Numbered from the stretch's first letter, positions 44 to 58,304 are shown. The stretch is 64,000 nucleotides of DNA from Barthelona sp. PCE (GCA_040285745.1 JAUFOR010000001.1:930001-994000), one strand, 5' to 3'. Translations and numbers: made by a program. The notes: a model not told the origin generated them from the letters alone.

Positions 44-1330
44 TCAATCTTTTCTTGGCGACCAACGCACATTAAACTCCGGCAAACGCACACTCTGTGT
101 GTTATTGTTGTGGAACTGCGTCTGCTCATCCTTATCATTGTCATCTTCCATTGTTGTAATAAGGGGGTTAACCTTCAACGACTCAAGGTACTGTTGCTTC
201 AAAGGCATATCATCTACAACGCCAAAAAGCGACAGCATGTTTGACTGCCTAATGCGGGGGAACTCGGGGAGACGCACAGTCTTTATGGAAGGCGGCTGCA
301 ATTTAACATTGCGTTTTAAAAAAGATGGGGTTACCGCTTCTTCATCAGAATCATGAATTGCTCTTAATGGTGTGACCGACTCCTGTGGAGCTTTTGAAGT
401 GGGTTTGCTCACAACTGCGGGCGTACTCTCAATGATTGCATCACGGTTCCAATCGTAAAGAAGCCCAAATTTTGATATCTTATCAACAACAACCCCCAGC
501 TGACGAGCCCTCTGAAGGAACTTCTTTCGCTGTGGGTGCTGCATGTCATCGTCTGAACAGCATTGAACCATTTTTGAGACACCATCCTTATGAAACCTGA
601 ACGTGATCGATCCATACACAGCGAGAGCGTACAGAGACATCAGAATCCTGCGCAAGCTACTGATTCCCACGCCAATAAGGGCCACCGACCCTGATGTATC
701 GTCTATCCGCTCCGGAAACGGGTCTTTTATGAAAAGAGCCGATAGTTGAATGTCCATGACACAGTTCGTCAACACCGAGAGAATAATCCAGCTCAAGGTG
801 ATACGTGGAACTGTCTGTGGGACACCCTTTGCGTGGTTTATCAGTGCAAACTGTCTGCCTTCATCCCCACTTTGGTTCGGTGAAACAAGAATACCTCCCA
901 CGTTCTCTATAAGGGTTCTCCATCCGACAGGGAATGAGGAGTCCGCATAGAACACGCATTCCTTAAATAGATCTTCCCTGACCTGCATGGATCTAGATAA
1001 AAAGAGTGAATTGAAGTAGGAAAAGGAGAATGGCGTCTTAAGGTAACTGAATGAGTGTGCCACGGCAATTATATTGCCAGTGATGGTTTTGATATCACCT
1101 GTTTCATTATACTTGTGTAAAAAATCAATACTAACAAACTTATCACATTCTGAACCACTCTGAAGGTAACAATCAAGAGAATTCCCTATGTATACACCTC
1201 TGCTTCGCCCAAAATCATTAATATTAATTCCAACACGAACAACCCTAAAAAAATCACGCAATGTTGATGTGTGTGCATAGATGTCATTCGGACACTGAAA
1301 GAACATCAATGTGCGATTATCTGAAGACAT
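44..1330 (-). CDS. Hypothetical protein, probably with BRCT-like repeats
   Basis: 428-aa ORF; segments 'WRTLIENVGG...ITLSWIILSV' and 'VALIGVG...RARQLGVVVD' have BRCT-like spacing; low-complexity C-terminus. Confidence 0.45.
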   Translation of the reverse strand: MSSDNRTLMFFQCPNDIYAHTSTLRDFFRVVRVGININDFGRSRGVYIGNSLDCYLQSGSECDKFVSIDFLHKYNETGDIKTITGNIIAVAHSFSYLKTPFSFSYFNSLFLSRSMQVREDLFKECVFYADSSFPVGWRTLIENVGGILVSPNQSGDEGRQFALINHAKGVPQTVPRITLSWIILSVLTNCVMDIQLSALFIKDPFPERIDDTSGSVALIGVGISSLRRILMSLYALAVYGSITFRFHKDGVSKMVQCCSDDDMQHPQRKKFLQRARQLGVVVDKISKFGLLYDWNRDAIIESTPAVVSKPTSKAPQESVTPLRAIHDSDEEAVTPSFLKRNVKLQPPSIKTVRLPEFPRIRQSNMLSLFGVVDDMPLKQQYLESLKVNPLITTMEDDNDKDEQTQFHNNNTQSVRLPEFNVRWSPRKD

Positions 1331-1892
1331 TAAAGTACCTGAAAAAATGAAATGGTTGATAACGTTGAATGCAAGATAAAAATCTGTAATTTTCGTTTTC
1401 GCTTCAAAAAGTTTTGATTTTGTTTTGTTAAACCCATAATTTCTTCATCAATCGATGATAAATGCAATACATAACGAGTAACAAAAAAATCCATTCATAA
1501 GCTTGTTCAAGCTCTTTATCTTTTCTAATGAGGTGACATGTGGGTTTGATTGCGCTAAAACAGATAAGTAATAAGAAAAATCGAGAGTTCCAAAAAAACC
1601 TATGAATAACGCTACAGAGAAGTAATAGCTCTTCTTTATCTGCCGACAATGCAATAATATGCAACTTAATGCACGGTATTCCAAAGTAAAGGCATTTAAA
1701 ACTAGAGGTACCACAACCGGCTTAACAGCAAATCAGACTTAATTTTCTGATCTCAAAGTTATTATCCCCCAATACCATTTTTTCTTCAGTTCCCATGTGA
1801 TTCAGGAACCTTACAAAGCAGAACTCTTTGAGAATTCTGCTGTACAACTGTTATATTCATTATCTCTTATTCCTAAGTCACATTGGGTCAAA

Positions 1893-2612
1893 ATGTCTTT
1901 GAATATGGGTCCACTCGACTCTTTGGTAGAAAATTACCTTAGTTGTCGTGCACCTGATGCGGTAACTGCTTTCCAAAAAGCAACAAAGCATAACATCTCA
2001 ATGTCTGCACCCCCAGGTATCTTTCAGATCCTCCATCAGTATGAACAGGTTAAGAAGCAATTAGAGACGGTTTTATTACAATTGCAAAAACAACAACAAC
2101 CTCAACAGGCACCACAATACCAAATCGGATATTATAACGGCAATCCTGTGATGCTGCCGGTACAAGGAGGAAACTATGTTTATTCTGTACCCACATCAAC
2201 TGGTTCACAACAACAATACATTGTACCAGGACAACCCCAACAGCAACAACACATTATTAACCAACCGCAAGAACACCACACCCTCCCACACAATACGCAA
2301 CAGCAGCCCATGATTGCCAATACAATGATACAGCCTACCGTGTACAGCAATGGTCATCCTTCAAGCAGTGAAGGCAGACATTATCGTAGTCGTAGCTCTT
2401 CTCACTACGAATCTGGGCATAAGATTGCACCTCCGTTGATAGTGAAGCCATCGCCACCGCATACAGCCCCAACACCTCCTGTTAAAGTGCAAGCTTTTGA
2501 GAACAACGTGGCACAAGGACAATACAATATAAGCCCTCTCAAAGAGGAAAAAACTAGAGAGGTTAGCTCGACAGAACGTGCACAATCAATGGCATTTGAG
2601 TTTTTCTCATAG
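1893..2612 (+). CDS. LisH-like N-terminal motif protein with Gln/Pro-rich tail
   Basis: First ATG at 1893; 'LDSLVENYLSCRAPDAVTAFQKAT' resembles a LisH motif; followed by Q/P/H-rich disordered region. Confidence 0.5.
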   Translation: MSLNMGPLDSLVENYLSCRAPDAVTAFQKATKHNISMSAPPGIFQILHQYEQVKKQLETVLLQLQKQQQPQQAPQYQIGYYNGNPVMLPVQGGNYVYSVPTSTGSQQQYIVPGQPQQQQHIINQPQEHHTLPHNTQQQPMIANTMIQPTVYSNGHPSSSEGRHYRSRSSSHYESGHKIAPPLIVKPSPPHTAPTPPVKVQAFENNVAQGQYNISPLKEEKTREVSSTERAQSMAFEFFS

Positions 2613-3230
2613 TCTTGGTACAAAAAATTAGTTTTTTGCGTTTTTTTTTTGTACTTTTCTGTTAATAAAAACAACATATGATAACAAAATGAATTGCCAT
2701 TCTTTCTGAATAATAATATTGATGTTTATTGATGTTAATTTCGCAATTGATGTATGTAAAGTTTAATACTAATTATGATGCTAATCATATCCCACTCAAT
2801 TAAAGCGAACATAACTATGTTGCTTAAAGCAATAAAACCAATAAAATCCCGATAAACACAAAATTAGGTCCAAAAAAAAAAAATGTCTTTGAAATAGTAC
2901 ATTTTCATTCATTATCTTCAATAAATCTTCTTAATTTAAGTGAATAAATCCTTTAATAACACTTTAAAAACTTTTTAAACAAAGAAAAGGTAAATAAAAA
3001 TTTTTACAACTAGTTCAACAACACAATCAATATGTCTAGCATCTTTTTAATTTTATCACACAATTTTCAGATAGCTGAAAGTATTCAAATCTACATACAA
3101 CGGTAATAAAACAAAATAAAATAAAACCCCAAATTTTGCTCAATCAATATATTTAATTCCTTTTTCAGATATATTATGGTAAAATATTGGTGTATTATGG
3201 ATATAAAAAAGCAATAAAAAAAAATTTTCA

Positions 3231-3302
3231 TGACGACGGCAGGGATCGAACCTGCGACCAGCGGATTCGAAGTCCGATGCGCTTCCACTGCGCCACGCCG
3301 CC
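3231..3302 (-). tRNA. tRNA-Arg (anticodon TCG)
   Basis: Minus strand folds as a cloverleaf: GGCGGCG/CGTCGTC acceptor, GCGC D-stem, CT-TCG-AA loop, GCAGG-TTCGATC-CCTGC T-arm, discriminator A; T-run downstream (Pol III terminator). Confidence 0.95.
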
Positions 3303-3655
3303 ATAGTGTATACCAGATATTTTGCAATCAAAATATTTTGACAAAATCTCAGATACACATTCAAATCCAATCAAAAAATATTAAAGATTCTTCATACTTC
3401 TTATTTAGTTATTTTAAATAACCTTTTTATTTGATTAAAAGTGGGTTTATGAGAAAAATTAAGTTTTTATCGTTAAATTTTAAATATATAATTAAATTAT
3501 TTTTTTATGGATACTGAATATATATAGGTATTTTTTGAAACCTAAAAACTTATAAAATAAATTTATTAATGAAAATTTGAAAATAGAATATTAAATTTGT
3601 TACAACAACAAAAATAAAATTTTGAGAAAAAGCCAGTAGAATAAATTTAAATTTG

Positions 3656-5167
3656 TTATGAATAATAACCTTCACTGTCAGTATAGTTATCGTCAAAACC
3701 CCAATCATCAGAATCCGGATCGCTGCTCTCATCAGGATCACTAATCTCTTCATCATAATCAACGGACTCTTTTCCGACTTCTGCGTATTCTTCTTGAAGA
3801 ATAGAGAGATTTTCACGAGCGTTAAGGAATTCTGCCTCCATATCTTCAGTACCATACCAATGTAAAAATTCTTTTTTGGAAAGCAACACTTCTGCTGCTT
3901 GATCAATGCGGTTGAAGACTTCTGCTATGGCTGTAGAGCTGGATATCATACATACAGAGCGATTTGTGTTGGAAAACATACTGTTTGGCATAGCAATAGG
4001 GTATTTATCATTATGCATTTCAGTTCTTAAGATCTGAGGACACCAGTCAACGAATTGAATAGAGTCAGAAAAGTCAGAAAGAGGAGGTACGCCTTGTAAA
4101 ACATCACCACGGTACATTAGACAGATAGAAAGGTATTTTCCCATTCGAGGATCGCACTTTGCTAAAGCTGAAGATGAGTCAAATACTGCCTTAGTTAATT
4201 CGGCTACAGACAAGTCATTGTTGAGGGCATTACTTTTAGAGATTGGAGCATAAGAAGGAAGCATGAAGTGAAGTCTAGGGTAGGCAATCAAACTCATTTC
4301 AAAACTCGAGATTGTGTTGTTGAGTGTGCCACCGTAACGCATGGATGCAGTCATAGAAGAAACATACTGACTAATCACATGGTTAAGATTAGAAATGTCG
4401 GGGTTCATAATATCAAAATTTGTTTGACAAATATCATAAATAGCATCATTATCCAGTGCAACAGAAACATTAACATGTTCAAGGAGCGTGGATGCTGTTA
4501 ATATTGCATTATACGGTTCTACAGTAGAAGCAGCATTTTTTTCAGAAGGAAAAATGGGAATAGCCATTGTGCTTTTTTTTTCGAAACTTTCTGAAAGTTT
4601 CTCGACAAGAAGAGAACCAACACCAGAACCAGTGCCACCTCCAAGAGCACTGTAAACCATGAAACCTTCTAATGAATGACACTGATCGGCGAGTTTGCGA
4701 ATCTGTTGAAGACAGTTATCGATTATTTCATCACTTAATGCACGGCTGCGGGCGTAAGAAGCGGTAGGGTCCACCACATTGCCAGATATCAATTGATCAT
4801 TGTGAAAGAGATGACGACTGGGATTACACCTTAATATATCAATCGTTTCTGGGTCTAGATCGATAAAGACAGCGCGGGGGTTGTGTTTGCCGTCAGGACT
4901 ACTTGAGAAGTGACTGCTCAATGCTTCGTAATCAGTATTATCCTTTTTATCAGGATGCATATATCCATCCTGTTGAATGCCGTGTTCAAGACAAAATAGA
5001 TCCCAACAGGCAGTTCCCGTCCGCTAAATGTGAGTATTAACAACGAAATAAGCCACATTAAGCGACTAGAATACTAAATTACAACAAAATAGTTTTAATG
5101 TCGGTTAAAATTGTTTTAAACATACAACACCTGCCCCTCCAATATGTATAGAAATGAGTTCGCTCAT
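3656..5167 (-). CDS. Divergent alpha-tubulin (exons 5167-5126 and 5023-3656; intron 5125-5024)
   Basis: Spliced N-terminus [56 protein letters not shown] motifs; GTATGT...CTCACATTTAG intron after codon 14, same position as in the canonical copies. Confidence 0.9.
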
Positions 5168-5738: not shown

Positions 5739-6200
5739 ATGTCCGAAAGAACCAAGCCCGTCAGCCGTTCCGTTAGAGCCGGTGTTTCACTCTCTGTTGG
5801 TCGTATCCACAGATACCTTAAGCAGGGTAAGTACGCCGACCGTATTGGTGCCGGTGCTCCCGTCTACCTCGCCGCCGTCCTCGATTACTTGATCGCTGAG
5901 GTCCTCGATGCCGCTGGTACCATCACCATGGAGAAGAACCGTCAACGTATCACTCCCCGTCACTTGCTTCTCGGTATGAAGTCCGATACTGAGCTCGCTC
6001 AGCTCATCAGCAACGTCACCTTCCCTTCTGCAGGTGTTGTTCCTTTCATCCACCCCGAGCTCCTCCCCAAGAAGGGCACTCGTCGTACTCGTTCCGCCAA
6101 GGGCAAGGGTAAGGCCGCCGCTAAGGCTAAGGGTGTTGCCGCCAAGGGTAAGGGCAAGGCCAAGGCCAAGGGTAAGGCTAAGGCTTCCCAGGCTTACTAA
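5739..6200 (+). CDS. H2A: Histone H2A, H2A.X-like (C-terminal SQAY) with long Lys/Ala tail
   Basis: SRSVRAG, VGRIHRYLK, GAGAPVYLAAVLDYL, RITPRHL, GVVPFIHPELLPKK histone-fold motifs. Confidence 0.95.
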   Translation: MSERTKPVSRSVRAGVSLSVGRIHRYLKQGKYADRIGAGAPVYLAAVLDYLIAEVLDAAGTITMEKNRQRITPRHLLLGMKSDTELAQLISNVTFPSAGVVPFIHPELLPKKGTRRTRSAKGKGKAAAKAKGVAAKGKGKAKAKGKAKASQAY

Positions 6201-6607: not shown

Positions 6608-7270
6608 ATGGGTTTATTTGGAAGAAAAAGAGCACCAGAACCAACTAATGAGCGTCCAGCTGATCCTTTACGCGAGCAGGCCAAAGAATGGCGCAAGAGT
6701 GTCAGAAAGGAGGCAAGAGGATTAGATAGAGAAATTAGGAATATCGATAGAGCTACATTGAAGGTCAAAGCTGAGATAAAACGCCTCGTCAGAGATGGAG
6801 ACGTTGACAGCGCTAAAATGCTAGCCAAAGAAGTTGCTAGATCCAACAAAGCAGTCGCTCGTTTTTATACAATGAAGGCAAACCTCTCTGTAATGGAGCG
6901 TAAGATCGGTGAGATGTGCTCTCAGCGTACTCTTATGCAAGCAATGGGTAATTCTGCCCAAATCATGGCACAGGTAAATTCTATGGTGAAGGTTCCCGAG
7001 TTGCAACGCACAATGATGACCATGAGCCGCGAAATGGAGCGCGCTGGCTTAGCACAGGAGATGATGGACGATGCAGTCGAGGATATCATTGATATTGAGG
7101 ATATTTCTGATGAAGCCGATGCTGAAATCGATGCCGTAATGGATGATATCGTTACAGAACTAGCAAAGACGGACCCAGTAATCCGTAGAAGGCTGGAAGA
7201 AAGCGCAAAGGAGGAGGTTGTCGATGTTGATGCCACTTCAGCAGCTCGTCTTGCAGCTCTTGGTTTATAA
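6608..7270 (+). CDS. VPS24: ESCRT-III subunit VPS24/CHMP3
   Basis: MGLFG start, 'EWRKSVRKEARGLDREIRNI', 'VNSMVKVPELQRTM...EMERAG', C-terminal MIM1-like 'ARLAALGL'. Confidence 0.9.
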   Translation: MGLFGRKRAPEPTNERPADPLREQAKEWRKSVRKEARGLDREIRNIDRATLKVKAEIKRLVRDGDVDSAKMLAKEVARSNKAVARFYTMKANLSVMERKIGEMCSQRTLMQAMGNSAQIMAQVNSMVKVPELQRTMMTMSREMERAGLAQEMMDDAVEDIIDIEDISDEADAEIDAVMDDIVTELAKTDPVIRRRLEESAKEEVVDVDATSAARLAALGL

Positions 7271-7304: not shown

Positions 7305-10300
7305 TTACATAGGGTTGTGGCACATGGGACAAGTACTAACAGCGCCCCTCAGTGATTCATGGATGTGATGGCTGCATCGCTTACATTTGTGAGTTTTTGC
7401 ATCAAACAGTGGAAGACCGCTTGCTACGCACAAGTTGAACGAAGTCTGACAGTGCTCGCATTCATGCGACAGTATATCGATCTCCTGAACGCACTTCGGG
7501 CAAGTGATCGTTTGTGATTTGGGATTTTTGGCCTGCTTGCGGCTAAACACTTGAATACCAACGTCCCTGTACACCTTCTTCATTTTTTCAGGGATTTTTT
7601 CGATTCCTTCCAGTTGGATGAGTGCTTCTGCAGCATAGCGCAGGTAACCACTGTACAAGGCACTGATAAACATTAGTGAATACACGTTTGCCTTGTAATA
7701 GTCAGGAATACTGTACTTTGTAACAATTCGTATCATACAGCTCAGAGCGTGGGGGTATTGTTCACTCATGACATGTCTGTGGGCGAGTAGGAGCAAGTGT
7801 GTGAGCTCGATTCTGTTCCAGAGAACTGTTACAGTCTCGTTGAGAGTATCGTCTTCATCAAACATGTTGTCGACTGTGAGGTTGCCAAATGAATTTGTTT
7901 TCATCACCTCGAGCCGAAGAACGGCGACAATGAGCAATTTCTTGATCTCAACGTTATTCAATAGGTGTAAATGGTTATCAACTGTTGTCATAATAAGTTT
8001 GGCAAGACGCAAATCATCTCCTGCTATCTTCGAAAGAGTGATACACTCGCGGATCTTGCCGCTTCTGATTAAGTGATCGGCAAGCTTCTCTCTGAGTAAA
8101 GATACGTTAGTTAGGCGTGTGTCGTCCTTGTACCTGTTGTACAGCTTCATTGCAAGACCCCATTGTGCGTGCTCCACGCATAAATCAACAGCCATGTTAT
8201 ACAACTCGAGTTCGATTAGGCAATCGACGGCATGTGAGATCTGGCCACTGATGAGGAACTTCTCACTAAGGTACTGGATTGTTGAGCTTGTTTTTGTCTC
8301 GAAGACAACGGGTTTGAGTTCAACCATCTTTTCAAACCTGTTCAAATAGAAGTAAGAGTCGATTAGGATGCGATATTCGGTTGAATTCTCAAGAAACTCA
8401 ACCGCCTGGGAGTACTTGCTCTTCTCAAAAAAGTACTTACCCAGGAACTCGTTGAGTTGTTGGCTCTCGAAGTTTGCCACATCAATCGCGTCCCTGCTGC
8501 TCTCGATGATCTCGTACATCCTTGAGTAATCTCCCAGCTGCTGCCTCAGTGAAAGCGCAAGATCCAATCTATCGTTGGTGAGGTACAGGCGCTCTGCAAT
8601 GTCAAAGTCACCCAAAAACGTGTATATCTTCGCCTGCAGCCTGTAATTATCCTTGATCTTATGGATAGACTTTACGAACTGTATTGATGGGTAGTCGCTG
8701 CACCTGATGAACGCCTTTAGCGCAATGTCCAAGTTCTCAACGCTAAGTGCATAACGGCCAAGCATCCTCCACAGTCTGTCGTGTGGGTTGTCATTAATGA
8801 ACTGGAACGCGTCCTTGAGTGATACCTCGTCTAACAAATGACGTGCGTCCCTTAAAGAGCGGCTTTCGATGTTGCCAAGGAGCTCGAGCGCCGGTTCGCT
8901 AGGTTTGATAAATAGTTTGTGAATTGCAATCGTTTTAACAGTAAGCTCCTCGAAGCTCAGCAGGTGATCAATAGTTTCGATTGGCTCCTCACTGCGCAGA
9001 TCCCTAATTATGTAGACGCATGACTTTTCCGTCGACGCAAACAAGTGGGGATCGTCCTTTGACCACAGCACGTTGTGCACATCCTTACGGGTAAGGTTGA
9101 GCTGGTTGACTGCAAGAGATGTGCCGACGGTGTCACCAGACTCCACGGAGTACACGAACAACATGAATCTTGTGGTGATCAACGCCAATCGAGAACCGTC
9201 GCAGTTGGCTTTTAGCGAGTATACATTCTTCCCGCTATCCAGCAAATTAATGCGGCTCTCCAGGATGTTGTGCTTGAATGAATAGAACAGAAAGACACCA
9301 CTCGCCAAGACGAGTATGGCATGCGTTTTTGTTACACACCCGTTCACGATTGGATCCTTTGTATGAGCTTGTAGAAGGTCCTCAGTGTTTGCACTGGAGA
9401 TTCCGCAGCTATCGTTGATATCTACCCAGAGTCTTGTTTTTTCCTCAAAAACAGACGCTTCGTCTTGGTCCTCGATCGTCTCGAAGCTCTTGCTCATCTC
9501 AATGTTGAACTTCCACACCAGTGCGGTGTTCTTAAAGCCCAGTAGTGCGTTATTGGCATCTGCAGAGACAAATAACGGCTTCTCGGAGATGTCAATACTG
9601 CACAGCGGAACACCAATGTTGTTGCACAGGCTCAGGAGGTACTCCGGTTTCTTGGCAGTAACGTTAACATCCACATCGTTGATTTCGACGTTGTCATCCT
9701 CAAACGCAATCGAGACATTGGGGAGCTGATTCTCTCCGCCATAAGCTTTGGTAATCACAGAATCTTTCTCGCTGAGCAGCAAAGCATATGATCCGGCGCT
9801 GTTCAGGAACTCGAGGTTACGATAGTACTTAACATTCTTCTCATCCGTCATTGTGTTCCAGAAAACAACAACGTACTCCCATTTGTTCCTTGCACTGAAC
9901 GAGTAACATAAAGTCGCGTTATTCATAGCGCAGCAGAGAGTATCGACAACAACACCTGCGAAAAAGACATGGTCGTTGACAGAATAGGCGAGACGGTGTC
10001 CGCCCGGTGAGAAAGTTATTGCTGATACAGGGTCACGGTGATTACGAACGTTGAAGATGATTTCACCCTGCTTGTTTAGGATTGCAACAAAGTGCTCCTC
10101 CGACACGGGGTTCTTCGCCGTAACCGCCAACAACTTTCCGCTAAAGTGAATTGAGCAATCGTTAACGATGAAGTCCAGTTTAGTTACGAACAAATTTGAC
10201 TTCTTCGCCGACGCCCCAAGGCTTTTTGCATCATCAAACACAAACATGTGGCCCTGGTCGTCGAATATGACGAAATGGCTCAGACCATGGTCGGTGTGTA

Positions 10301-10922
10301 AGACTTCAAACACTGTTGGATTTATGGAGCCATCTAGGGACACATCATTAGACGAAGAGATAAAGCTCATGAGCGGCACGCGGAGCACAGGGCTGCCACG
10401 GGGGTCAAGAATGATGAGGACCATATCCACAGTAAGCAGGATGATGCCCTTGCCGTCAGATGTCCAGCGAACAAAGCGTATGAGCTCAGTAAACTGTTTT
10501 TGCCACTGTCTTTTCTGCGGGAGTGCCTCGAGGACGATGGATCCGTCATCGTAGATCATGCAAATGCGGTTACCTAACGGACTCCAACAAGCATCGATGA
10601 GTGTTGCGGAGTTTAAATTGGAGTACTGCATAAACCAGTCGCCCTTTGACACGCCCCATGTTACAACGAGCCCATCGGTATCGGATGTTAGAAGCGTTTG
10701 GCGCTTATTACACCAGGCAAGTGTATCAACGACATCGTTGTGTCCATCCAACGTTACAGTTGATTTCACAAAATCACGGTCGCTGATATTATCCGATATA
10801 TAAAGGATTTTGAGAAGATTATCACCTCCTATAGCAAGGGAGCTGTGAAAGCTGTGCCAGCTCATCGTTGAGATGTGTACGCCGTCAGGCATGCGTACTT
10901 TCTTTGCGAGATACACGTACAT
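7305..10922 (-). CDS. WDR35: WD repeat protein 35 / IFT121 (IFT-A)
   Basis: MYVYLAKKV start, WD40 repeats, 'SRSLRDARHLL...FINDNPHDRLWRML', 'AFIRCSDY', C-terminal Zn ribbons CVASG and CPMCH. Confidence 0.92.
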   Translation of the reverse strand: MYVYLAKKVRMPDGVHISTMSWHSFHSSLAIGGDNLLKILYISDNISDRDFVKSTVTLDGHNDVVDTLAWCNKRQTLLTSDTDGLVVTWGVSKGDWFMQYSNLNSATLIDACWSPLGNRICMIYDDGSIVLEALPQKRQWQKQFTELIRFVRWTSDGKGIILLTVDMVLIILDPRGSPVLRVPLMSFISSSNDVSLDGSINPTVFEVLHTDHGLSHFVIFDDQGHMFVFDDAKSLGASAKKSNLFVTKLDFIVNDCSIHFSGKLLAVTAKNPVSEEHFVAILNKQGEIIFNVRNHRDPVSAITFSPGGHRLAYSVNDHVFFAGVVVDTLCCAMNNATLCYSFSARNKWEYVVVFWNTMTDEKNVKYYRNLEFLNSAGSYALLLSEKDSVITKAYGGENQLPNVSIAFEDDNVEINDVDVNVTAKKPEYLLSLCNNIGVPLCSIDISEKPLFVSADANNALLGFKNTALVWKFNIEMSKSFETIEDQDEASVFEEKTRLWVDINDSCGISSANTEDLLQAHTKDPIVNGCVTKTHAILVLASGVFLFYSFKHNILESRINLLDSGKNVYSLKANCDGSRLALITTRFMLFVYSVESGDTVGTSLAVNQLNLTRKDVHNVLWSKDDPHLFASTEKSCVYIIRDLRSEEPIETIDHLLSFEELTVKTIAIHKLFIKPSEPALELLGNIESRSLRDARHLLDEVSLKDAFQFINDNPHDRLWRMLGRYALSVENLDIALKAFIRCSDYPSIQFVKSIHKIKDNYRLQAKIYTFLGDFDIAERLYLTNDRLDLALSLRQQLGDYSRMYEIIESSRDAIDVANFESQQLNEFLGKYFFEKSKYSQAVEFLENSTEYRILIDSYFYLNRFEKMVELKPVVFETKTSSTIQYLSEKFLISGQISHAVDCLIELELYNMAVDLCVEHAQWGLAMKLYNRYKDDTRLTNVSLLREKLADHLIRSGKIRECITLSKIAGDDLRLAKLIMTTVDNHLHLLNNVEIKKLLIVAVLRLEVMKTNSFGNLTVDNMFDEDDTLNETVTVLWNRIELTHLLLLAHRHVMSEQYPHALSCMIRIVTKYSIPDYYKANVYSLMFISALYSGYLRYAAEALIQLEGIEKIPEKMKKVYRDVGIQVFSRKQAKNPKSQTITCPKCVQEIDILSHECEHCQTSFNLCVASGLPLFDAKTHKCKRCSHHIHESLRGAVSTCPMCHNPM

Positions 10923-11353
10923 TTCGGGTAGATGTGAAAAGGGGATAAAATATTGAAAACTCTTGATTGAACAAGTTTTTGAGTTCCTGTTGGCTGGCGG
11001 GAGCGTTAATTCTTTTTGTTGTGGAACCTTCATGTCACTAAACTTCTTGTTTGATGGTACAGGCTACGAAAATTCAGAGTTATCGTATTTAGTAGTATAT
11101 TGGTTATTATTGTCTCCATGTGGATAGTGATTATGTTAAATCCAATTTAAAGAATGCAATTGTTTTCCATGAGAAGATGAAGTAGGTATCGTTTTTGATG
11201 TCGTCGTACAACGACTCAATTGTACTCTTGGAAAAGTAACTCCACGAACCGATCAATTACAGGCATTGTCGCATTAAGAAGCACATCGAATCTACAAGTG
11301 TGAGCTTTTTGTTGTTCCACAAAATTTCACTTATTTCGCACATCGGAATCACC

Positions 11354-17306: not shown

Positions 17307-18692
17307 ATGTCTGACGGAAGATTTCGTGAGAAGGGACAGCAGCTTGGTCAACAAGCCAAGGTGCAGGATGATGCTGAGAATTTTGAGGAAGCTTTGAATC
17401 TGTACACACAGAGTATCCAGTATTTCATGACTGATTTAAAATGTATGGTTGCAAAATTACACGTTAACAGCGTGTTAATGCGAAGAAATATTTTCTAACT
17501 CCTAGATGAAAAGACTGATCGTATGAAGGAAGCTATCCGTGGTATCATTGCCCGGTTCCTCGATCGTGCAGAGCAGATTAAGCAAATGCTAGCGAAACCG
17601 AAGAAAGTACCTGCATCAGGTCCTAAACGCCCCAAACAAGGCAATTCAAACCAGAAATCGGAAGAAGGTGAGGAAGGAGAAGGCGGAGAGGATGATGTCG
17701 ATGAAGACACAGCCAAGCTGAGGGAGATGATTGGACAAGCTATCGTTCGTGACAAGCCTAATGTTCGTTGGAAGGATATCGCCGGTCTTGAGACCGCCAA
17801 GAACTCCCTACAAGAGGCTGTTATCGTTCCCATTCGATTCCCCCATCTTTTCGTTGGTAAGCGTGAACCCTGGCGTGGTATTTTGTTGTACGGTCCCCCT
17901 GGTACCGGTAAGTCGTACATTGCCAAGGCAGTAGCAACAGAGGCAGACGCCACATTTTTTTCAGTAACTGCTTCGGACCTTGTTTCCAAGTGGCAGGGTG
18001 AATCAGAGAAGCTTGTCAAGGCGCTCTTCACATTGGCCGGAAAGGAGGCCCCATCGATCATATTTATTGATGAGATCGATGCACTTTGTTCTACCCGTTC
18101 GGAGAACGAGAGCGAGTCTTCTCGTCGTATTAAGAACGAGTTCCTTGTCCGTATGCAAGGTCTCGGATCAGCCGAGGGCGTGCTCGTACTGGGTGCCACC
18201 AACCTCCCGTGGATGATTGATTCAGCCGTTAGGAGACGTTTCGACCAGAGAATTTATATTACGCTCCCAGATGTCAACGCTCGTGCTGCGATGTTTAAGA
18301 TTCATCTTGGTGAAACCCCCAACGACCTCAGCGACGCTGACTTTATGCACATGGCCACCGAGACCGAAGGGTACTCTGGTTCGGATATTAACTTGATTGT
18401 TAGAACCGCTCTCATGGAGCCTATCCGTCGTTGTCGTCAGGCCACACACTGGAAGGTTGTCCGCGGAAAGAACCCCGACGGAGAGATGCAGGACGGTATG
18501 CTCACCCCTTGCTCTCCAAGCGATCCAGCAGCGCAGGAGATGACGATGATGGATATTGAAGGCAATCGTCTTCTGGCACCTCTGATCTCTCGCCAGGACT
18601 TTATGAAGGCACTTGCCAAGGTACCTAAATCCGTTGGAAATGAGGATATGACTAAGCACTTGGAATTCACTCGCGAATTCGGTATGACTTAG
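17307..18692 (+). CDS. VPS4: AAA ATPase VPS4 (exons 17307-17442, 17506-18692; intron 17443-17505)
   Basis: MIT domain joined in frame (DLK|YEKTDRMKEAIR) by GTATGG...CTAACTCCTAG intron; GPPGTGKS, IIFIDEID, beta-domain TPCSPSDP, C-terminal FTREFG. Confidence 0.95.
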
Positions 18693-21655: not shown

Positions 21656-23494
21656 TTATCTGACAAGCTTTATCTCTGAGACGGGATAGAATTCACTATT
21701 TTGGGTTAACAAATCAAGGATACTGACTCGTTTTTCAAAAATCGTGAAGCTTGTGAATGATTCATCAAAAACAATTAAATCGTATACAACATCGTATCTA
21801 TCCAATTTCATGTGCAGCCGCATAACGGAATTCCACTTGTATGGTTGGTAAGTGAACTGTGTTGTGTTGATGAAATCCCAAGGGAGATTCAGGTGAACTT
21901 GCTCGACTTCCTCACCAGTAAATCTGAACAGCTGGTCCTCTATGAAGAACACCCGGTCGTTGACGAAGTAACTGCTGAAAGCCTGATTTCCACAAATATG
22001 ACAACCGCTAAACACGTTGAATTCTTTGCTTTCTGCATCGTACACCACCACCTTCATCTCACTTCTTTGTTCAGAGAGACATATGTAGGGGCTGTAAAGG
22101 TTGGGGATGCAAAAGTAATGCATATCAGTGGACATTTTGTGCTGAGCAAAGTCGAGGACAACTCCAGCATCGTCCACACTCACAAAAGCCAAATATGAAG
22201 AGCCGGAAACCCACATGCATCCACCACACGAGGATGTGACGTCAAACCAGTTGTTGAACGGAGTATTGATAACTGTGTCGCCGACTGTGATTACCTGATT
22301 GTAACAGTTTTCTATAACTGTGAAACAACCGGCACTGTATTCAACGGTAACGTGTTCCATGTCCGTTCTTAAATATTCACAGTGTATTTGACCGTCTTTG
22401 AAAGCTACAAATTTCTTCTTGTCTCTGATCTGAACACCGGCTTGGGTCAGCGTGGAGCAATTGCCCTCAACCACACCATGTATCATAGCAGACGGGTTTT
22501 CGCTGAAAACATCAATGTGTATGATGTGGTTGCAAGAAGCAATCGCAGGTGTTCGTATGGCCGATCCGGTTTCTGTCAGTGATATTCGCATATCAGCAAT
22601 GATACCGTACCCAGCTATATTGCGCTCAACCGTCAAGGGATACATCACGCTATCTATCATACCGTAGACTTCACCGTTAAGGAACGTAAATGACATAAAG
22701 GTGTTGCCTGACACGTCCGTGTAGCACTTCACTTCACCTTCGTCAAAACTGTAAGCAACTAAATTCGTACTGTATTGGATGAAGCACAGATCGTCCAGGA
22801 AAAATGCGGATTTAGGTTCTGCGTGTTCCATTAGAAAACTACAGCACAGCTTTTCAGAATGGACCTCGGCTCCAGAATCGCTTTCAGTGATGGAAACCTT
22901 GTAAATGCAATCTTGTGTGATGAATAAACATCTTACGTCAGTATTGATAACTGGAACCATCACGTATGTGTCACTGTACGGTACAGGTATGTCAAGGCAC
23001 TGCACTGTGTTATTTATGATCACCGGCGCTACATATTTAGTATGCACGGGATCGAAAAATATGCAAATACGTTCATAGGCTTGCACTTTCTTCACATTAA
23101 ACCGTTGTACCTCATATGAATACGCATTAACAACAGCCGAGTGATTTCCGTAATGTGCAACAATGAAGTAAGAGTCTGTAAAGACACTATAGAGTTGTGC
23201 GGATGCAATTGGAAAATCTATTGGACTGAATCGATTTGTCTCCTTAAGTTGACCACAATCCATTCCATAGTATATGATTTCACCATTTTTTTGAACAACA
23301 AATGAGTTCTCCCCATTAAGGGTTTGTTTAAAACTAGACCAACGTGCTGGTAGTATCACTTCCCGTTTGGTTTCTGGGAGCAGTACGAATGTCGTGGTTT
23401 TTGGTGTGTGTTTGTGTGATTCAACAATGCAATGGTGTTGTTTGCAATTTATGCAAACATCCTTTGAAAAAATGTGTGGTTGGATGCGTGGCAT
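21656..23494 (-). CDS. Hypothetical protein (beta-rich, probably lineage-specific)
   Basis: 612-aa uninterrupted ORF; no recognisable motif. Confidence 0.7.
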   Translation of the reverse strand: MPRIQPHIFSKDVCINCKQHHCIVESHKHTPKTTTFVLLPETKREVILPARWSSFKQTLNGENSFVVQKNGEIIYYGMDCGQLKETNRFSPIDFPIASAQLYSVFTDSYFIVAHYGNHSAVVNAYSYEVQRFNVKKVQAYERICIFFDPVHTKYVAPVIINNTVQCLDIPVPYSDTYVMVPVINTDVRCLFITQDCIYKVSITESDSGAEVHSEKLCCSFLMEHAEPKSAFFLDDLCFIQYSTNLVAYSFDEGEVKCYTDVSGNTFMSFTFLNGEVYGMIDSVMYPLTVERNIAGYGIIADMRISLTETGSAIRTPAIASCNHIIHIDVFSENPSAMIHGVVEGNCSTLTQAGVQIRDKKKFVAFKDGQIHCEYLRTDMEHVTVEYSAGCFTVIENCYNQVITVGDTVINTPFNNWFDVTSSCGGCMWVSGSSYLAFVSVDDAGVVLDFAQHKMSTDMHYFCIPNLYSPYICLSEQRSEMKVVVYDAESKEFNVFSGCHICGNQAFSSYFVNDRVFFIEDQLFRFTGEEVEQVHLNLPWDFINTTQFTYQPYKWNSVMRLHMKLDRYDVVYDLIVFDESFTSFTIFEKRVSILDLLTQNSEFYPVSEIKLVR

Positions 23495-23964
23495 ACTAAT
23501 TTAGCCCATAAATATGCAATATGCCGAATTAAAAAGAAAAAAGTGGTTGAAAGAAACGATAAAAATGAGGAATCAGGTAGTTTGCAGGAGTTATCTATTT
23601 TTAATAATAGAACACTTAATTCGGTGATATATAAGGTTTTGGCAACCGAGTTGATACTTGTAAACTAAAGTAATGCAAACCTGCGATGTCAAGCGTGTAT
23701 TTGCATCAATATTTGTGTTTAAGTGTTGTGATGAAGGGTATTGCATCGATTTTACAACGTTTATTTTTGAAAAACTGTTCATGAAAATCATTGGGGTTCC
23801 GTTTCATTTTTTGACGTTGGACAAATGTTTAGCTCAATGTCAACCAGTACTGATTAGGAACAATATCTGGCAGGGGAGAACATGTGATCGTGTTAAAGAT
23901 GCTTTTAGGGATAAGTTTCACTATTTAGTTTTTTATCTCCTTCTTTAAACATATTTTTAGAAAA

Positions 23965-36310: not shown

Positions 36311-36460
36311 AATGAATATCTTCAGAAAAAACTGTGTGGTTATGTATAAATGAGATTGCGATCGACTGGTTGTACTTGAAATATTGGATAAATACCAACT
36401 TGGATTAAATTTAGACCAAAAGGGATCAAAAAGGCAAAACAAAAATTTTCATCGAATAAT

Positions 36461-38460
<2,000 letters not shown>

Positions 38461-38533: not shown

Positions 38534-40699
38534 CTATTCATTATGATAACCCTCATAATAATCGGGCATTTGGTACTCAACGATGGACGCCTCCGCCAGG
38601 AACGAAGGAAGGTGGAACGTTTCCACTGTGGGATTCATCGATTCCGGGTCTTCTTCAACGTTGTATGTTTTCAACACCATGGTCTTGGTCTCTTTTTCGT
38701 ATGACATTTCTTGAACAGTGTTATTGGGTAGATTTAGATTTCGGCTCATTTTCTCAGTCTCTTCTTTGTATGACATATCATGAACAACATTATTAGGCAT
38801 ATTTTGCATATTCATAATGTGTAAATTGTCGTTTGTGTAAAAATGCGTTTTAATTGCACCATCTTCAATGTATACTTTAATAATACCATCCCTTAAGTGT
38901 ATGCAGGAATCTCCCAGGAAATCTCGGAATAAGTTGCCTCCATAGGGGTCATAATCAAGCCAATACTCATTAAGAAGAACAGGCTCTAAGAAGCTTCCTG
39001 TTGACCAATCTAAACAGCGTAAATGTTGCGTTCCTCCATCTTCCCAGTATACACATTCAATAAACAGCTGATGATCAGGTGTTTCAGCCAATGTACGAGG
39101 GTTAAAGTGAACATCTATATCATATCCATGTTCAGAAACAATGTGCTTTTGAACATCCACAACATACCCGTTGACATTGAACCGAAAGAAATGGATTGCA
39201 TTACTACACAGAATACACGCTGAATTATCAATATGTGAACCATGAGCACTACTGACGGAAATATTCGGAGGAAGATCCAAAATCACATTATTCCCTAAAT
39301 GAACCAATGTTGTACCATCTTCACGATATTCAACATTTAAGGGCAGCCCTTGAATAAAACCTAAGTGTTTAGAGCCACAATGAGGTAAAATAGTTGTGAT
39401 GGGTTCGGATTCTGAGTCGTTCCAACGTAATTTGACATATGTAGCACCTGTTTCACTACGTACCTCTGCAAATACAATAAAATCATCTTCATTTGGAACT
39501 GATAGGATACTACACCTCGTACGTGAAAACTGTTTCCATAGCCCATGCAGCACAATAATCTTCCTTTTTTTGAAAAGAAAGTAACATCTTATCAAAGAGT
39601 TATAATCATACACTTCCGCTGTCCCATCAAAAAAAATTCGTTTTGGGTGAAGACTGTTCAAACACACAACCTCATCATCAACTGCTCTGAATTTGATTGG
39701 GCCATAACGTCCTGTTATTTCATCAACACCATAAAAAACACAATCTTCGTCACGAAAGGAATTATCGTTCAAATTTATATGCTTCAACCCATCGCAAACT
39801 ACATTATTAAAATTCATTTCACTCTCTAACATCTTCAATTCACCGTTTTCAATATGAACCACCATCGTGAAACTTGATTCAATGAATACCATTGACAAAA
39901 CATCTTGAGTGAGCGTTAATAATGCAAAATTTGAGTCTATATCAATATTCAATCCTTTAAGCTGTGGAAACCTTTCTGTTAAGTTAACTTGGTTCCTTTG
40001 GCTGTCAAATATTACCAATTCACCATATCTATGATCGCCAAGGATTGAGCCAAAACAATCCGAGTTGTAACACCTGATGATGAATTTTGAATGGATACCA
40101 AGCAACTGTTCAACATCAGGTTCATGTGCCTCGTCCATGTCATCAGCAGAAAAATTGTATTGCCATGTGGTATCATCTTTGCATTTCCTTAACAAAATGT
40201 AGTTTGAATTGATGATTGATTGAGAGCTATACTCTCCAAGACATCTATATTCCTCGGTTATAACATTAAATATGTAGCACTGCCTCACTCTTCTAAAATT
40301 AACGTATTCTTCAATGGTGAATAGTAGGTGGTTTTCATCCATCGGAATTATTCTGCTAATTTTGGATCTTCTTATGCATATTCTCCTTCTTGTATGCACA
40401 TCACTCATGATATGATCAAATAATAAGATATCAAGATGGGTTACAATATTATTTTCGCAAAGTATATCGATGATCATATAAGATTCTCCGGCTCTAAGCT
40501 TAGTTGTGTATTTAAGAGGCTCACGCGTATCCCCCACATACCCAACAAAGTCCTTGCCTTCAACGGCGCTCTCAATGAGGCTGATATCTGAGTTTTCTCT
40601 TGATTTAAGCAATCTTAGACCCTTTCCCTCAAATATCATCTGCCCCTCGGGATACGCCTTGATGATAAGGTCGTCTTCGAATTTTCGAACCCTAGGCAT
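38534..40699 (-). CDS. Hypothetical 721-aa protein inside the inverted repeat
   Basis: Uninterrupted ORF, AT-richer than housekeeping genes, 23-aa internal duplication near the C-terminus. Confidence 0.75.
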   Translation of the reverse strand: MPRVRKFEDDLIIKAYPEGQMIFEGKGLRLLKSRENSDISLIESAVEGKDFVGYVGDTREPLKYTTKLRAGESYMIIDILCENNIVTHLDILLFDHIMSDVHTRRRICIRRSKISRIIPMDENHLLFTIEEYVNFRRVRQCYIFNVITEEYRCLGEYSSQSIINSNYILLRKCKDDTTWQYNFSADDMDEAHEPDVEQLLGIHSKFIIRCYNSDCFGSILGDHRYGELVIFDSQRNQVNLTERFPQLKGLNIDIDSNFALLTLTQDVLSMVFIESSFTMVVHIENGELKMLESEMNFNNVVCDGLKHINLNDNSFRDEDCVFYGVDEITGRYGPIKFRAVDDEVVCLNSLHPKRIFFDGTAEVYDYNSLIRCYFLFKKRKIIVLHGLWKQFSRTRCSILSVPNEDDFIVFAEVRSETGATYVKLRWNDSESEPITTILPHCGSKHLGFIQGLPLNVEYREDGTTLVHLGNNVILDLPPNISVSSAHGSHIDNSACILCSNAIHFFRFNVNGYVVDVQKHIVSEHGYDIDVHFNPRTLAETPDHQLFIECVYWEDGGTQHLRCLDWSTGSFLEPVLLNEYWLDYDPYGGNLFRDFLGDSCIHLRDGIIKVYIEDGAIKTHFYTNDNLHIMNMQNMPNNVVHDMSYKEETEKMSRNLNLPNNTVQEMSYEKETKTMVLKTYNVEEDPESMNPTVETFHLPSFLAEASIVEYQMPDYYEGYHNE

Positions 40700-41421
40700 G
40701 AATAGCCGTGATTATGTAGGTGAATATTGAGATAGCATGTATTTCTTAAAAATCAGTGTTTACACGTGGAATATATAGATGATATAATACATGTGAAGCG
40801 TAAACAAAAAGCGCGAATGTGAAACAGAACTGCATTTGTATTTCTATCCCCTCACAATTTTATTGATGTGGTTCACAGGGCTTGTACCACGTGATACCTA
40901 AAATGGTGGACGCGTACGGGGATTGGGTTGGTTGTGGGGCACGTTTTGGCTACATTGCGGGTGCAGATAGCAGATAATATATTTGAGTGTTTTGTAGATG
41001 ATTAAAAAATCTCCCAACAATAATCTGGTTTCTTTCAGCATGAATAACGATTGGTGCCACGATATCTATTACCCTGTTGCCAATTTTGTTCTGCATGCTG
41101 CAAGTGCCACCCTTCTTTGTTCCCCTCCTCCCTACGGTGTATCAGCTACCTTCTTGACGCTTCTCTTTCACATTCTTTTTATCGAATTTGAATTGCAATG
41201 AACACGCTTCATTTTGTTATTCAAATCACTGAAGATGAAGCCAGTAAGAGATTTTTAGAATTTGAATCTGTTTCCGACTTGGTGGGATCTGTCTTGACAC
41301 TTTTTGACCTTAAATACATATATAACACCATGTAAGGCATGAAAAATGCTGCAATAATAGAGATTAGTGATTTTTTCAATTTTCTTTTTTCCACTTATTA
41401 CAAACAATATCTCTTGGTGAC

Positions 41422-45684: not shown

Positions 45685-47685
<2,001 letters not shown>

Positions 47686-47738
47686 CTTAAATATTTTGCT
47701 TTTGCAAAAAATATTATAATCCTTTACATATTTGGGCA

Positions 47739-52423: not shown

Positions 52424-52975
52424 TTGTGAATACCCAAACAATGCAAAACGTTGAAAAGGGGGAAATTTGAGGTAACATTAGAATAGTGCTTTTTAAATCT
52501 AAACTAACCTTTGGCAGAATTTTGCACAATGGAACAATCACTTGCAATATCAAGGAGCAATATATAAGACATTGACAGTAAAAAAATGGCTATAAAGGCA
52601 TTTCGATAGTAACGTGTTCCTTTTGCACTAAATATGATCAAAATATGCAGAAAAAAATACCACACAAACTTTTAACGATCTAGAACCTCATTACATAAAA
52701 AATAAGTGGAGATGTTCGAATGAAAAAGTTTAACTTTTTGTTTTAGCATGGTAATAGAATTTATTTTCGGCAACAAACTTTAACTGTATGCATGATCAGA
52801 CATTATGATGCATAAAAATTTATTATATAAGATATACAAGTATATAGTAAGTGCAGGTTTTTATATATCCATGATCGCTTCATTTTTGAGTGTTTAAAAC
52901 CTTAAATTCCTTAATATAATAACGAAAAACATACATTGATCAACATGTCAAGAAGGCTCACCTGCAATTGTTTTT

Positions 52976-57647: not shown

Positions 57648-58304
57648 GTCAGGCAAAGCGGAAGAAATTTCAAAAGCAAGTGAGATTCACAAAATCTTCC
57701 TCTCCTCGCTTCAAAAAAACTGATGGCGCGCCTTTCTGACTAGCATGAGCACACTTATAATGCTTCAAACCAATTTAGATGAACTTCTATGTTGAAATAT
57801 TCTTAACGTTCATATTTGCTGGTCTTACGTGGTCATATGCAGGTTTTATTGGTGCAAAATCCCATGCAGCTTAAAGAAAATGTATTTTAACGAATAGAAA
57901 ATTGAGAAGCTGCTTTTATCTCTGTTGCTTATGTTTCGGCTTTTATACCTTTTTTTTGATGAAGAAGGAAGGACGAGCGATATCAATTTGACACCAGAGT
58001 CACTTTTCTCATTAATCCGGGCTTTTTTTCTTTTTTTCGGAGTTAATTTGGTTGGTTCATGCTTTGAAAACGTCAGAGCTGCATATTTACCAATAACCAT
58101 TGCAAATCAAGAATTTTTCACACAGTGAACGGTATTGCAAGAATTTTTTAGTTTTACCCACTTCATTCTGAATTTTTCTTTTTTTTTTATGGTCGCCGTG
58201 TGGGTATAATAAAGAATTATACAGAATGCGGAGTTTGTGATATTATGTAAGTATGTTTTCTTGCTATTAAGTTTTTAACTTATTTCTTGTATTACTAATT
58301 CATA

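What the first reader, a model, noticed from the sequence alone, without database searches (positions are those of the whole stretch)
3656..5167. Divergent alpha-tubulin missing the GTPase-activating residue E254
Seen: canonical [12 protein letters not shown] reads LNNTISSFEMSL, so D251 is T and E254 is S; the T3 region [11 protein letters not shown] reads NVVDPTASYARS; GGGTGSG is intact; the acidic tail is longer; the intron position is shared with the canonical gene. Known: alpha E254 triggers GTP hydrolysis in the adjacent beta subunit, and E254A gives GTP-locked stable microtubules. Inference: a natural stabilising or capping isotype for permanent flagellar or root structures.
Basis: partly seen in the sequence, partly recalled or inferred. 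Interest (0 to 1): 0.7.

Follow-up and report, generated by a model that had tools for sequence, protein, structure and literature searches.

The report
Catalytically disarmed alpha-like tubulin paralogue
A tiny anaerobic flagellate carries, besides its normal alpha-tubulin, an intact but very diverged extra copy that has lost the residues alpha-tubulin uses to switch off its neighbour's GTP; similar odd copies exist in other protists and their roles are unknown.

Summary
Window 3656-5167 (minus strand) holds a two-exon gene for a 469-aa protein identical to NCBI "hypothetical protein PCE1_004437" of Barthelona sp. PCE. It has both tubulin Pfam domains, matches alpha chains best by sequence and by fold, and sits on the alpha side of an alpha/beta tree. 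It is only 49% identical to the same genome's canonical alpha-tubulin.

In gap-free register D251 is T, E254 is S and Q256 is E. Also changed are R2S, K352R, Q11G, E71D, N101A and Y224I, and helix H10 has a 4-residue deletion. GGGTGSG is intact.

The frame is kept by selection: 0 of 300 neutral simulations stayed open. No closer relative turned up in two protein collections or one metagenome scan.

Losing E254 is not unique. It is kept in 147 of 147 canonical alpha rows but in only 35 of 68 diverged alpha-like rows. This gene is therefore a new member of the "alpha-like tubulin" grade (Tetrahymena ALTs, Naegleria "bonus" tubulins). This scan noted a Naegleria case before, on other DNA.

A role as a non-hydrolysing, stabilising or capping subunit is plausible but untested. 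Expression, the beta partner and localisation could not be examined here.

The parts
5126..5167 (-). Exon 1, 42 nt, residues 1-14 (MSELISIHIGGAGV). Carries R2->S and Q11->G.
   Evidence: Matches the N-terminus of NCBI protein P0003.
5024..5125 (-). Intron, 102 nt, phase 0 after codon 14, GTATGTT...TCACATTTAG.
   Evidence: Same position and same end motifs as the 46-nt intron of the canonical alpha gene at 37853-37898.
3659..5023 (-). Exon 2, residues 15-469 (P0001, 455 aa).
   Evidence: Pfam PF00091 (5.7e-41) and PF03953 (1.8e-27). Best solved-structure matches are alpha chains.
3656..3658 (-). Stop codon TAA.
4289..4324 (-). T7 end and helix H8, residues 248-259 (LNNTISSFEMSL). T251 codon is 4313-4315, S254 codon 4304-4306, E256 codon 4298-4300.
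   Evidence: Gap-free HMMER alignment, column table, coordinates. The AF2 model has helix 252-259.
4745..4783 (-). Remodelled T3 loop, residues 95-107 (GNVVDPTASYARS). One inserted residue and N101->A.
4622..4642 (-). Intact T4 signature GGGTGSG, residues 142-148.
   Evidence: T4 positions are kept in 92-100% of other alpha-like rows.
4382..4405 (-). H6-H7 loop and start of H7, residues 221-228 (NPDISNLN). Y224->I, N228 kept.
3998..4105 (-). H10 to S9 region, residues 321-356. Four-residue deletion in H10, K352->R, one inserted residue in S9. This is the least conserved part of the protein.
   Evidence: H10 1 of 15 identical, S9 1 of 7. (H10 shortened to 329-332)..
3659..3772 (-). C-terminal tail, residues 432-469, 38 aa with 16 D/E and 8 S/T, ending YYS. 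Predicted disordered.
   Evidence: pLDDT 49-68 over the last blocks.

Best explanation
This is a real, selectively maintained, lineage-restricted alpha-like tubulin paralogue of Barthelona sp. PCE (renamed Microbarthelona vorax in PMC13087550). It most likely arose by duplication of an alpha-tubulin gene that already carried the codon-14 intron.

It keeps the tubulin fold and the core of the nucleotide pocket: T4 GGGTGSG, D69, E183, N206 and N228. It has lost the apparatus by which alpha-tubulin activates GTP hydrolysis in the beta subunit below it (R2S, D251T, E254S). The rest of that minus-end-facing surface is also remodelled, with a deletion in H10 and changes in S9.

Inferred mechanism, not shown: it pairs through its less altered plus-end face with a beta-tubulin. 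Wherever such a dimer sits on a beta-GTP, that joint cannot hydrolyse. The protein would then act as a low-abundance, non-dynamic (stabilising, seeding or end-capping) subunit rather than a bulk lattice isotype.

Shown here: gene structure, alpha affiliation, substitutions, fold prediction, maintenance of the reading frame. Inferred: beta pairing, incorporation into polymers, the effect on GTP hydrolysis, low abundance.
For: Identity and integrity:
- 100% match to an annotated 469-aa protein.
- Both tubulin Pfam domains.
- All 60 solved-structure hits shown in the table are alpha chains; the best is 6u0h_A at E 3.8e-132.
- AlphaFold2 mean pLDDT 90.7 and pTM 0.89.
- The 50 Foldseek PDB hits listed are tubulin entries, chains A or C, with TM 0.93-0.96 normalised to the target and rmsd 1.6-2.4 A.

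Alpha affiliation:
- Alpha plus alpha-like rows split from beta with SH-aLRT 100 in trees of 75 and 26 rows.
- There is no gap in the S9-S10 loop segment, which is alpha-specific by my recollection.

Selection:
- 0 of 300 neutral simulations at the same amino-acid divergence stayed stop-free (mean 13.8 stops, minimum 4).
- Nucleotide identity by codon position is 0.63 / 0.74 / 0.41.
- It keeps 40 of 45 positions that at least 80% of 51 other alpha-like tubulins keep.
- The host genome is reported as 10.2 Mbp, the smallest for a free-living eukaryote (PMC11316075, passages).

Origin:
- Same first exon length, intron position and intron-end motifs as the canonical gene.
- A clade of the two Barthelona proteins is not rejected (p-AU 0.584).

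Loss of catalysis:
- Substitutions are documented.
- The roles of E254, D251, R2 and K352 come from PMC10319017. E254A gives GTP-bound stable microtubules and E254D gives slowed hydrolysis in PMC7018511.
- The interdimer-face elements are the most diverged: 16 of 51 identical against 192 of 370 elsewhere, Fisher p 0.007. The regions were defined post hoc from recalled secondary-structure boundaries.
Against: - No expression data, no orthologue and hence no dN/dS, and no view of the rest of the genome. Neither a beta partner nor a diverged beta-like paralogue could be sought.
- GC3 is 0.321. That is near the bottom of the 18 other ORFs measured (0.319-0.600) and far below the canonical alpha (0.546), which suggests low expression (inference).
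- The N-site pocket is itself altered (Q11G, E71D, N101A with a T3 insertion, Y224I). GTP binding and heterodimer stability are therefore uncertain.
- The face that must dock on beta-GTP is so changed that the protein may never occupy a lattice position where the missing Glu matters.
- Loss of E254 and D251 is no more than the overall 43% loss of invariant positions predicts. About half of other alpha-like tubulins show it too. It may reflect relaxed constraint rather than function.
Confidence: 0.5

Rival explanations
1. It pairs with a diverged beta-like tubulin encoded elsewhere in the genome and builds a separate, specialised polymer with co-evolved interfaces. This has been hypothesised for Tetrahymena BLTs with novel alpha partners.
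For: All lattice surfaces are changed: lateral 38 of 84 identical, interdimer 16 of 51, plus-end face 33 of 68. PMC3382179 (passages) argues that diverged BLTs may not co-polymerise with canonical beta and act in nuclei, not in axonemes.
Against: No such beta-like gene lies in this 64-kb window, and the genome is not held, so the idea is untested. A 10.2-Mbp genome leaves little room for a second tubulin system (inference).
Confidence: 0.2
2. It does not polymerise at all. It would be a tubulin-fold protein with a non-lattice role, for example binding beta-tubulin, tubulin cofactors or a nucleator, or marking the minus end of protofilaments where alpha's minus face is exposed.
For: The minus-end face is the most diverged, including a 4-residue H10 deletion. 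A review by Fulton judges Naegleria's highly diverged 'bonus' tubulins unlikely to assemble into microtubules themselves (PMC9081340, passages).
Against: The fold, T4, N206, N228 and much of H3, H11 and H12 are retained, as expected for a protein that still makes tubulin-type contacts. There is no direct evidence either way.
Confidence: 0.2
3. It is a decaying or functionless duplicate whose open frame is fortuitous, or a gene-model artefact.
For: There is no expression evidence and no orthologue. GC3 is low. Many canonical-invariant residues are lost, with 144 of 248 kept.
Against: 0 of 300 neutral simulations keep the frame open, and a random sequence of the gene's composition has a probability of about 6e-13 of having no stop. 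The codon-position pattern is 2nd > 1st > 3rd. Splice signals are intact. The fold prediction is confident. 40 of 45 alpha-like core positions are kept.
Confidence: 0.05

Closest known systems
Canonical alpha-tubulin: the same genome's gene at 36539-37939 (minus strand); solved examples 6u0h_A and 3j8x_A
   Same: Same fold, both Pfam domains, alpha-type S9-S10 loop length, K40 position retained, GGGTGSG, N206, N228, and the same intron position.
   Different: 49.3% identity over 430 residues. Tree branch length 0.81 against 0.039. R2S, D251T, E254S, Q11G, E71D, N101A, Y224I, H10 deletion, and a tail of 38 against 16 residues.
Alpha-like (ALT) and beta-like (BLT) tubulins of Tetrahymena (Eisen et al. 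2006 as cited in PMC9294176; PMC3382179)
   Same: Non-canonical paralogues beside a canonical set, with altered GTP-site and interface residues and atypical tails (passages read). A Tetrahymena utriculariae alpha-like protein (P0179) is among the nearest diverged rows in the trees.
   Different: No demonstrable orthology: the placement is unresolved (SH-aLRT 80-87, long branches). The organism is a metamonad with a minimal genome rather than a ciliate with 17 microtubule arrays. ALT functions are unreported in the passages read.
Naegleria 'bonus' highly diverged alpha- and beta-tubulins (PMC9081340) and Naegleria mitotic tubulins (PMC9036621)
   Same: Extra, strongly diverged alpha paralogues of unknown role, with gaps and additions (passages).
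   Different: Different lineage, with no closer sequence relationship seen. The mitotic tubulins build dynamic spindles. The passages I searched in PMC9036621 do not mention E254.
Engineered hydrolysis-deficient human alpha-tubulin E254A / E254N / E254D (PMC7018511, PMC8764682, PMC11893814)
   Same: The catalytic Glu is absent. The predicted consequence is a beta-GTP that is not hydrolysed at that joint.
   Different: Those are single-residue mutants of an otherwise canonical lattice subunit. Here about half of all residues differ, including docking surfaces and the N-site pocket. Of these papers, PMC8764682 and PMC11893814 were seen only as search listings and abstracts.
Blattamonas nauphoetae 'putative Tubulin alpha chain' KAK2955454.1 (P0257)
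   Same: Another metamonad alpha-like tubulin with T at 251 and no Glu at 254 (it has D). It is a near neighbour in both trees.
   Different: 31.5% identity to P0003. It lacks the H10 deletion and has a different T3. The grouping joins long branches and may be an artefact.

Membership tests
Tubulin/FtsZ superfamily (eukaryotic tubulin) | Pfam Tubulin GTPase domain plus Tubulin C-terminal domain above the curated cut-offs | tested here: met
   PF00091 at 141.3 bits (cut-off 33) and PF03953 at 96.4 bits (cut-off 26.6).
Tubulin/FtsZ superfamily (eukaryotic tubulin) | Tubulin fold | tested here: met
   AF2 pLDDT 90.7. Foldseek TM 0.93-0.96 normalised to the target against solved tubulin chains.
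Alpha-tubulin lineage (alpha as opposed to beta) | Closest by sequence and by tree to alpha rather than beta | tested here: met
   All 60 PDB hits shown in the table are alpha chains. The alpha/alpha-like against beta split has SH-aLRT 100. Gamma, delta and epsilon tubulins were not in the trees.
Alpha-tubulin lineage (alpha as opposed to beta) | Alpha-type long S9-S10 loop (the alpha-specific insertion is recalled knowledge) | tested here: met
   No gap against canonical alpha across columns 358-372, although only 2 of 15 residues are identical.
Canonical (lattice-forming, GTPase-activating) alpha-tubulin | Catalytic E254 and D251 in T7/H8 | tested here: not met
   S254 and T251. 147 of 147 canonical rows keep both.
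Canonical (lattice-forming, GTPase-activating) alpha-tubulin | High conservation (canonical rows here are 70-100% identical to the Barthelona canonical alpha) | tested here: not met
   49.3% identity to the own canonical alpha. Mean 46.9% identity to 174 canonical-like hits.
Canonical (lattice-forming, GTPase-activating) alpha-tubulin | Intact N-site GTP pocket (T1 Q11, T2 E71, T3 N101, T4, N206, Y224, N228; the residue list is recalled) | tested here: inconclusive
   T4, D69, N206 and N228 are kept. Q11G, E71D, N101A and Y224I are changed. Nucleotide binding was not assayed.
Canonical (lattice-forming, GTPase-activating) alpha-tubulin | Forms a heterodimer with beta-tubulin | not testable with these tools
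The own genome's beta gene is not held.
Alpha-like tubulins (loose grade: ciliate ALTs, Naegleria 'bonus' alphas) | Alpha-affiliated, far below canonical identity, atypical tail, present beside a canonical alpha gene | tested here: met
   It keeps 57% of 228 canonical invariants, equal to the median of 51 other alpha-like rows. This is a grade and not a clade, because relationships are unresolved.

The most novel reading that the evidence does not exclude
The gene encodes a natural, genetically hard-wired 'GTP-lock' subunit. An alpha-like/beta dimer would be placed at chosen sites, such as the origin or the ends of the few root, cytopharynx or internal microtubules of this minimal flagellate. 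The joints it makes can never hydrolyse GTP, giving permanent seeds or caps without MAPs. More broadly, about half of the diverged alpha-like rows sampled here have lost E254, which would then mark a recurrent, unrecognised class of non-catalytic alpha subunits.
Probability: 0.2. Interest if true: 0.75.

Novelty: new member of a known kind. Interest (0 to 1): 0.4.

Why it matters
Alpha E254 is treated as universally conserved, and hydrolysis-dead tubulin is known mainly as a laboratory mutant. This is a natural, selected alpha-derived protein without it, in what is reported as the smallest genome of a free-living eukaryote, where idle genes are unlikely to persist.

The survey here also suggests that losing the catalytic pair is common once an alpha paralogue leaves the canonical role: 33 of 68 diverged alpha-like rows lack Glu at 254. 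That sample is biased and unnamed.

If such proteins enter polymers, they would be built-in stabilisers or caps. If they do not, they show what a tubulin fold does outside the lattice. Either way the gene is labelled only "hypothetical protein", and the main text of the genome paper never uses the word tubulin (0 occurrences in a term search).

Tried and rejected
- **Own genome:** not held. No inventory of tubulin genes and no search for a beta or beta-like partner was possible.
- **Sequencing runs:** none was listed, and no RNA holder was listed. Expression was therefore not examined.
- **Complex prediction** with a canonical beta-tubulin from the search results: the queue was full, and the tool was declared unavailable. 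Nothing was folded.
- **Orthologue hunt:**
  - In the 5.8-billion-protein search, nothing above 50% identity appeared except the protein itself.
  - In the exhaustive representative search, nothing exceeded 53% identity, and those were partial matches. That library is clustered at 50% identity, so close relatives could hide under canonical representatives.
  - None of 271 retrieved proteins is closer to this protein than to canonical alpha.
  - The metagenome scan gave 5 loci at 34-49% identity.
- **AU test** on the 75-row tree did not finish in three runs. It was replaced by a 26-row set chosen by me: 11 canonical, 10 diverged, 3 beta, plus the two Barthelona proteins.
- **Rescue by the nearby Glu:** rejected, because the stretch is gap-free and helix H8 is in register. 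Side-chain geometry could not be measured because model coordinates are not returned.
- **Literature:** searches for a described natural alpha isotype lacking E254 surfaced none. This is not proof of absence.
- **Earlier notes:** none exist for this genome.

Full report
**What is there**

The minus strand of window 3656-5167 carries a two-exon gene:
- Exon 1 is 5167-5126, 42 nt, encoding MSELISIHIGGAGV.
- A 102-nt intron follows at 5125-5024, GTATGTT...TCACATTTAG.
- Exon 2 is 5023-3659, with the stop at 3658-3656.

The 469-aa product is letter for letter the NCBI entry "hypothetical protein PCE1_004437 [Barthelona sp. PCE]" (P0003). Strain PCE has since been named Microbarthelona vorax (PMC13087550, passages read). 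The main text of the genome paper never uses the word tubulin (PMC11316075, term search, 0 occurrences). It reports a 10.2-Mbp genome, the smallest known for a free-living eukaryote.

**It is a tubulin of alpha descent**

- Both tubulin Pfam domains score far above their cut-offs.
- All 60 solved-structure hits shown are alpha chains, the best at E 3.8e-132.
- An AlphaFold2 model built on a 110-row alignment is confident, with mean pLDDT 90.7 and pTM 0.89.
- The 50 Foldseek hits listed are tubulin entries, chains A or C, at TM 0.93-0.96 normalised to the target.
- In trees of 75 and 26 rows, alpha plus alpha-like sequences separate from beta with SH-aLRT 100. Gamma, delta and epsilon tubulins were not included.

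The stretch from R243 to R264 is 22 residues long in both proteins and aligns without gaps. The protein's own numbering equals canonical numbering there.
- D251 is T, E254 is S and Q256 is E.
- The model places helix H8 at 252-259, as in canonical alpha. The nearby Glu therefore sits two positions further along the helix and cannot replace E254. I could not measure side-chain geometry because coordinates are not returned.
- T3 reads GNVVDPTASYARS, with one inserted residue and N101A. GGGTGSG is intact. The tail is 38 residues against 16.
- The canonical alpha gene in the same window (exon 2 at 36539-37852) has the same 42-nt first exon, the same phase-0 intron position and the same intron ends.

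All parts of the observation hold.

A QM/MM study of the beta E-site includes four alpha residues in its quantum region: R2, D251, E254 and K352 (PMC10319017, passages). Here they are S, T, S and R.

The N-site pocket is also altered (Q11G, E71D, N101A, Y224I), while D69, E183, N206, N228 and T4 are kept.

Identity to the canonical Barthelona alpha is 49.3% over 430 residues. The protein keeps 144 of 248 positions that are at least 95% invariant in 107 canonical rows.

Divergence is uneven. I grouped the secondary-structure elements into faces, using boundaries recalled from memory and chosen after seeing the data.

| Group of elements | Identical to canonical alpha |
|---|---|
| Minus-end-facing, interdimer (T7, H8, H10, H10-S9, S9) | 16 of 51 |
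| Plus-end face | 33 of 68 |
| Lateral elements | 38 of 84 |
| Core strands and helices | 64 of 109 |

The interdimer elements compare with 192 of 370 elsewhere (Fisher p 0.007). H10 has a 4-residue deletion and is shortened in the model.

**Is it a working gene?**

- In simulations that mutate the canonical coding sequence neutrally to the same amino-acid divergence, 0 of 300 runs stayed free of stops (mean 13.8, minimum 4).
- Nucleotide identity to the canonical gene runs 0.63 / 0.74 / 0.41 by codon position.
- Splice signals are intact.
- It keeps 40 of the 45 positions that at least 80% of 51 other alpha-like tubulins keep.

These results argue strongly against a pseudogene. Against high expression, GC3 is 0.321. 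The canonical alpha has 0.546 and 18 other ORFs of the window range from 0.319 to 0.600. Expression itself could not be checked, because no sequencing run was listed.

**Relatives**

- Apart from itself, nothing in the 5.8-billion-protein search exceeds 50% identity.
- Nothing in the representative library exceeds 53%. That library is clustered at 50%, so it is a weaker test.
- None of 271 retrieved proteins is closer to it than to canonical alpha.
- A metagenome scan gave 5 loci at 34-49% identity.
- In the trees it sits on a branch of 0.81-0.94 substitutions per site, against 0.03-0.04 for the canonical Barthelona alpha. Its place among other long-branched alpha-like sequences is unresolved.
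- A clade of the two Barthelona proteins is not rejected (p-AU 0.584, 26-row set).

Together with the shared intron, this fits a duplication within the barthelonid line followed by fast divergence. N-terminal introns are widespread in alpha-tubulin genes (PMC4202323, passage), so the intron alone is weak evidence.

**How unusual is the missing Glu?**

The two searches returned 215 alpha-side proteins with at least 300 aligned positions. Seventeen beta rows and the duplicate P0001 were excluded.

| Group | Rows | E at 254 | D at 254 | Other at 254 |
|---|---|---|---|---|
| Canonical (at least 70% identical to a plant alpha) | 147 | 147 | 0 | 0 |
| Diverged (includes this protein) | 68 | 35 | 12 | 21 |

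All 147 canonical rows also keep D251. Among 51 other diverged rows, retention at 251, 254 and 224 is 49% each. The sample is what the searches returned, is mostly unnamed, and may include mispredictions.

Of the 10 diverged rows looked up, 4 carry an informative name and 2 of those name an organism:
- a Tetrahymena utriculariae protein;
- a Blattamonas nauphoetae "putative tubulin alpha chain", which has T251 and D254.

So loss of the catalytic pair is a recurrent feature of alpha-like tubulins and is no more than this protein's overall divergence predicts.

Such paralogues are known as a kind. Tetrahymena has three alpha-like and six beta-like genes (PMC9294176, PMC3382179; passages). Naegleria has seven "bonus" alphas, judged unlikely to assemble on their own (PMC9081340, passages). 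My searches found no paper describing a natural alpha isotype without E254.

**Mechanism**

Shown: an intact, selected, alpha-derived tubulin fold whose beta-GTPase-activating residues are gone and whose docking face for beta-GTP is the most altered surface.

Established from papers: E254A human tubulin yields GTP-bound, stable, strongly nucleating microtubules, and E254D slows hydrolysis (PMC7018511, passages).

Inferred: if this protein pairs with a beta-tubulin and sits on a beta-GTP, that joint stays GTP-bound. The protein would then act as a rare, non-dynamic stabilising, seeding or capping subunit. The cell has few microtubules outside its two flagella: roots R1 with 2, R2 with up to 8, R3 with 2, about eight internal microtubules, and cytopharynx supports (PMC13087550).

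I give this reading about 0.5. Identity as a real alpha-like gene without catalytic residues I hold at about 0.9. The rivals are a private polymer with a diverged beta-like partner (0.2), a non-polymerising role (0.2) and a functionless remnant (0.05).

Axonemal use is thought to constrain tubulin most, and Tetrahymena's diverged BLTs are non-axonemal.

**Limits**

- The own genome is not held.
- No orthologue exists for rate tests.
- Supplements of the genome paper were not consulted and may list tubulin genes or expression values.

Noticed in passing
window 36457-38400 (-) and 45745-47689 (+): The canonical alpha-tubulin gene with its upstream region is present twice as an inverted repeat. 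1943 nt align with 2 mismatches and three 1-nt homopolymer length differences (near 46451, 46653 and 47326), each of which breaks the frame of the second copy. This looks like unpolished long-read errors in a repeat, or a very young pseudogene.
   Followed up: partly
window 5024-5125 (-), 37853-37898 (-), 46247-46292 (+): All three alpha-tubulin introns begin GTATGTT and end TCACATTTAG. ACATTTAG occurs only 5 times on both strands of the 64-kb window. This may be an extended 3' splice or branch motif of this organism.
   Followed up: partly
window 5739-6197 (+): A histone H2A-type gene with a long Lys/Ala/Gly-rich C-terminal tail is transcribed divergently from the alpha-like tubulin gene. Their start codons are about 570 bp apart, across an intergenic region of 24% G+C.
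   Followed up: no
window 3230-3303 (-): tRNA-Arg (anticodon TCG) lies about 350 bp downstream of the alpha-like tubulin stop codon.
   Followed up: no
window 47-1444 (-), 1746-2612 (+), 21659-23500 (-), 38537-40711 (-), 52943-54571 (+), 58302-59420 (+): Six long open frames (288-725 aa) have no Pfam match at E <= 0.001. Two of them (38537-40711 and 52943-54571) share the low GC3 of the alpha-like tubulin gene.
   Followed up: no
window 7308-11063 (-) and 62488-63999 (-): Flagellar genes lie in the same window: an IFT121/WDR35-type protein and the C-terminal end of a dynein heavy chain. Snf7 (6608-7267) and Vps4 (17502-18689) ESCRT genes are also present.
   Followed up: no
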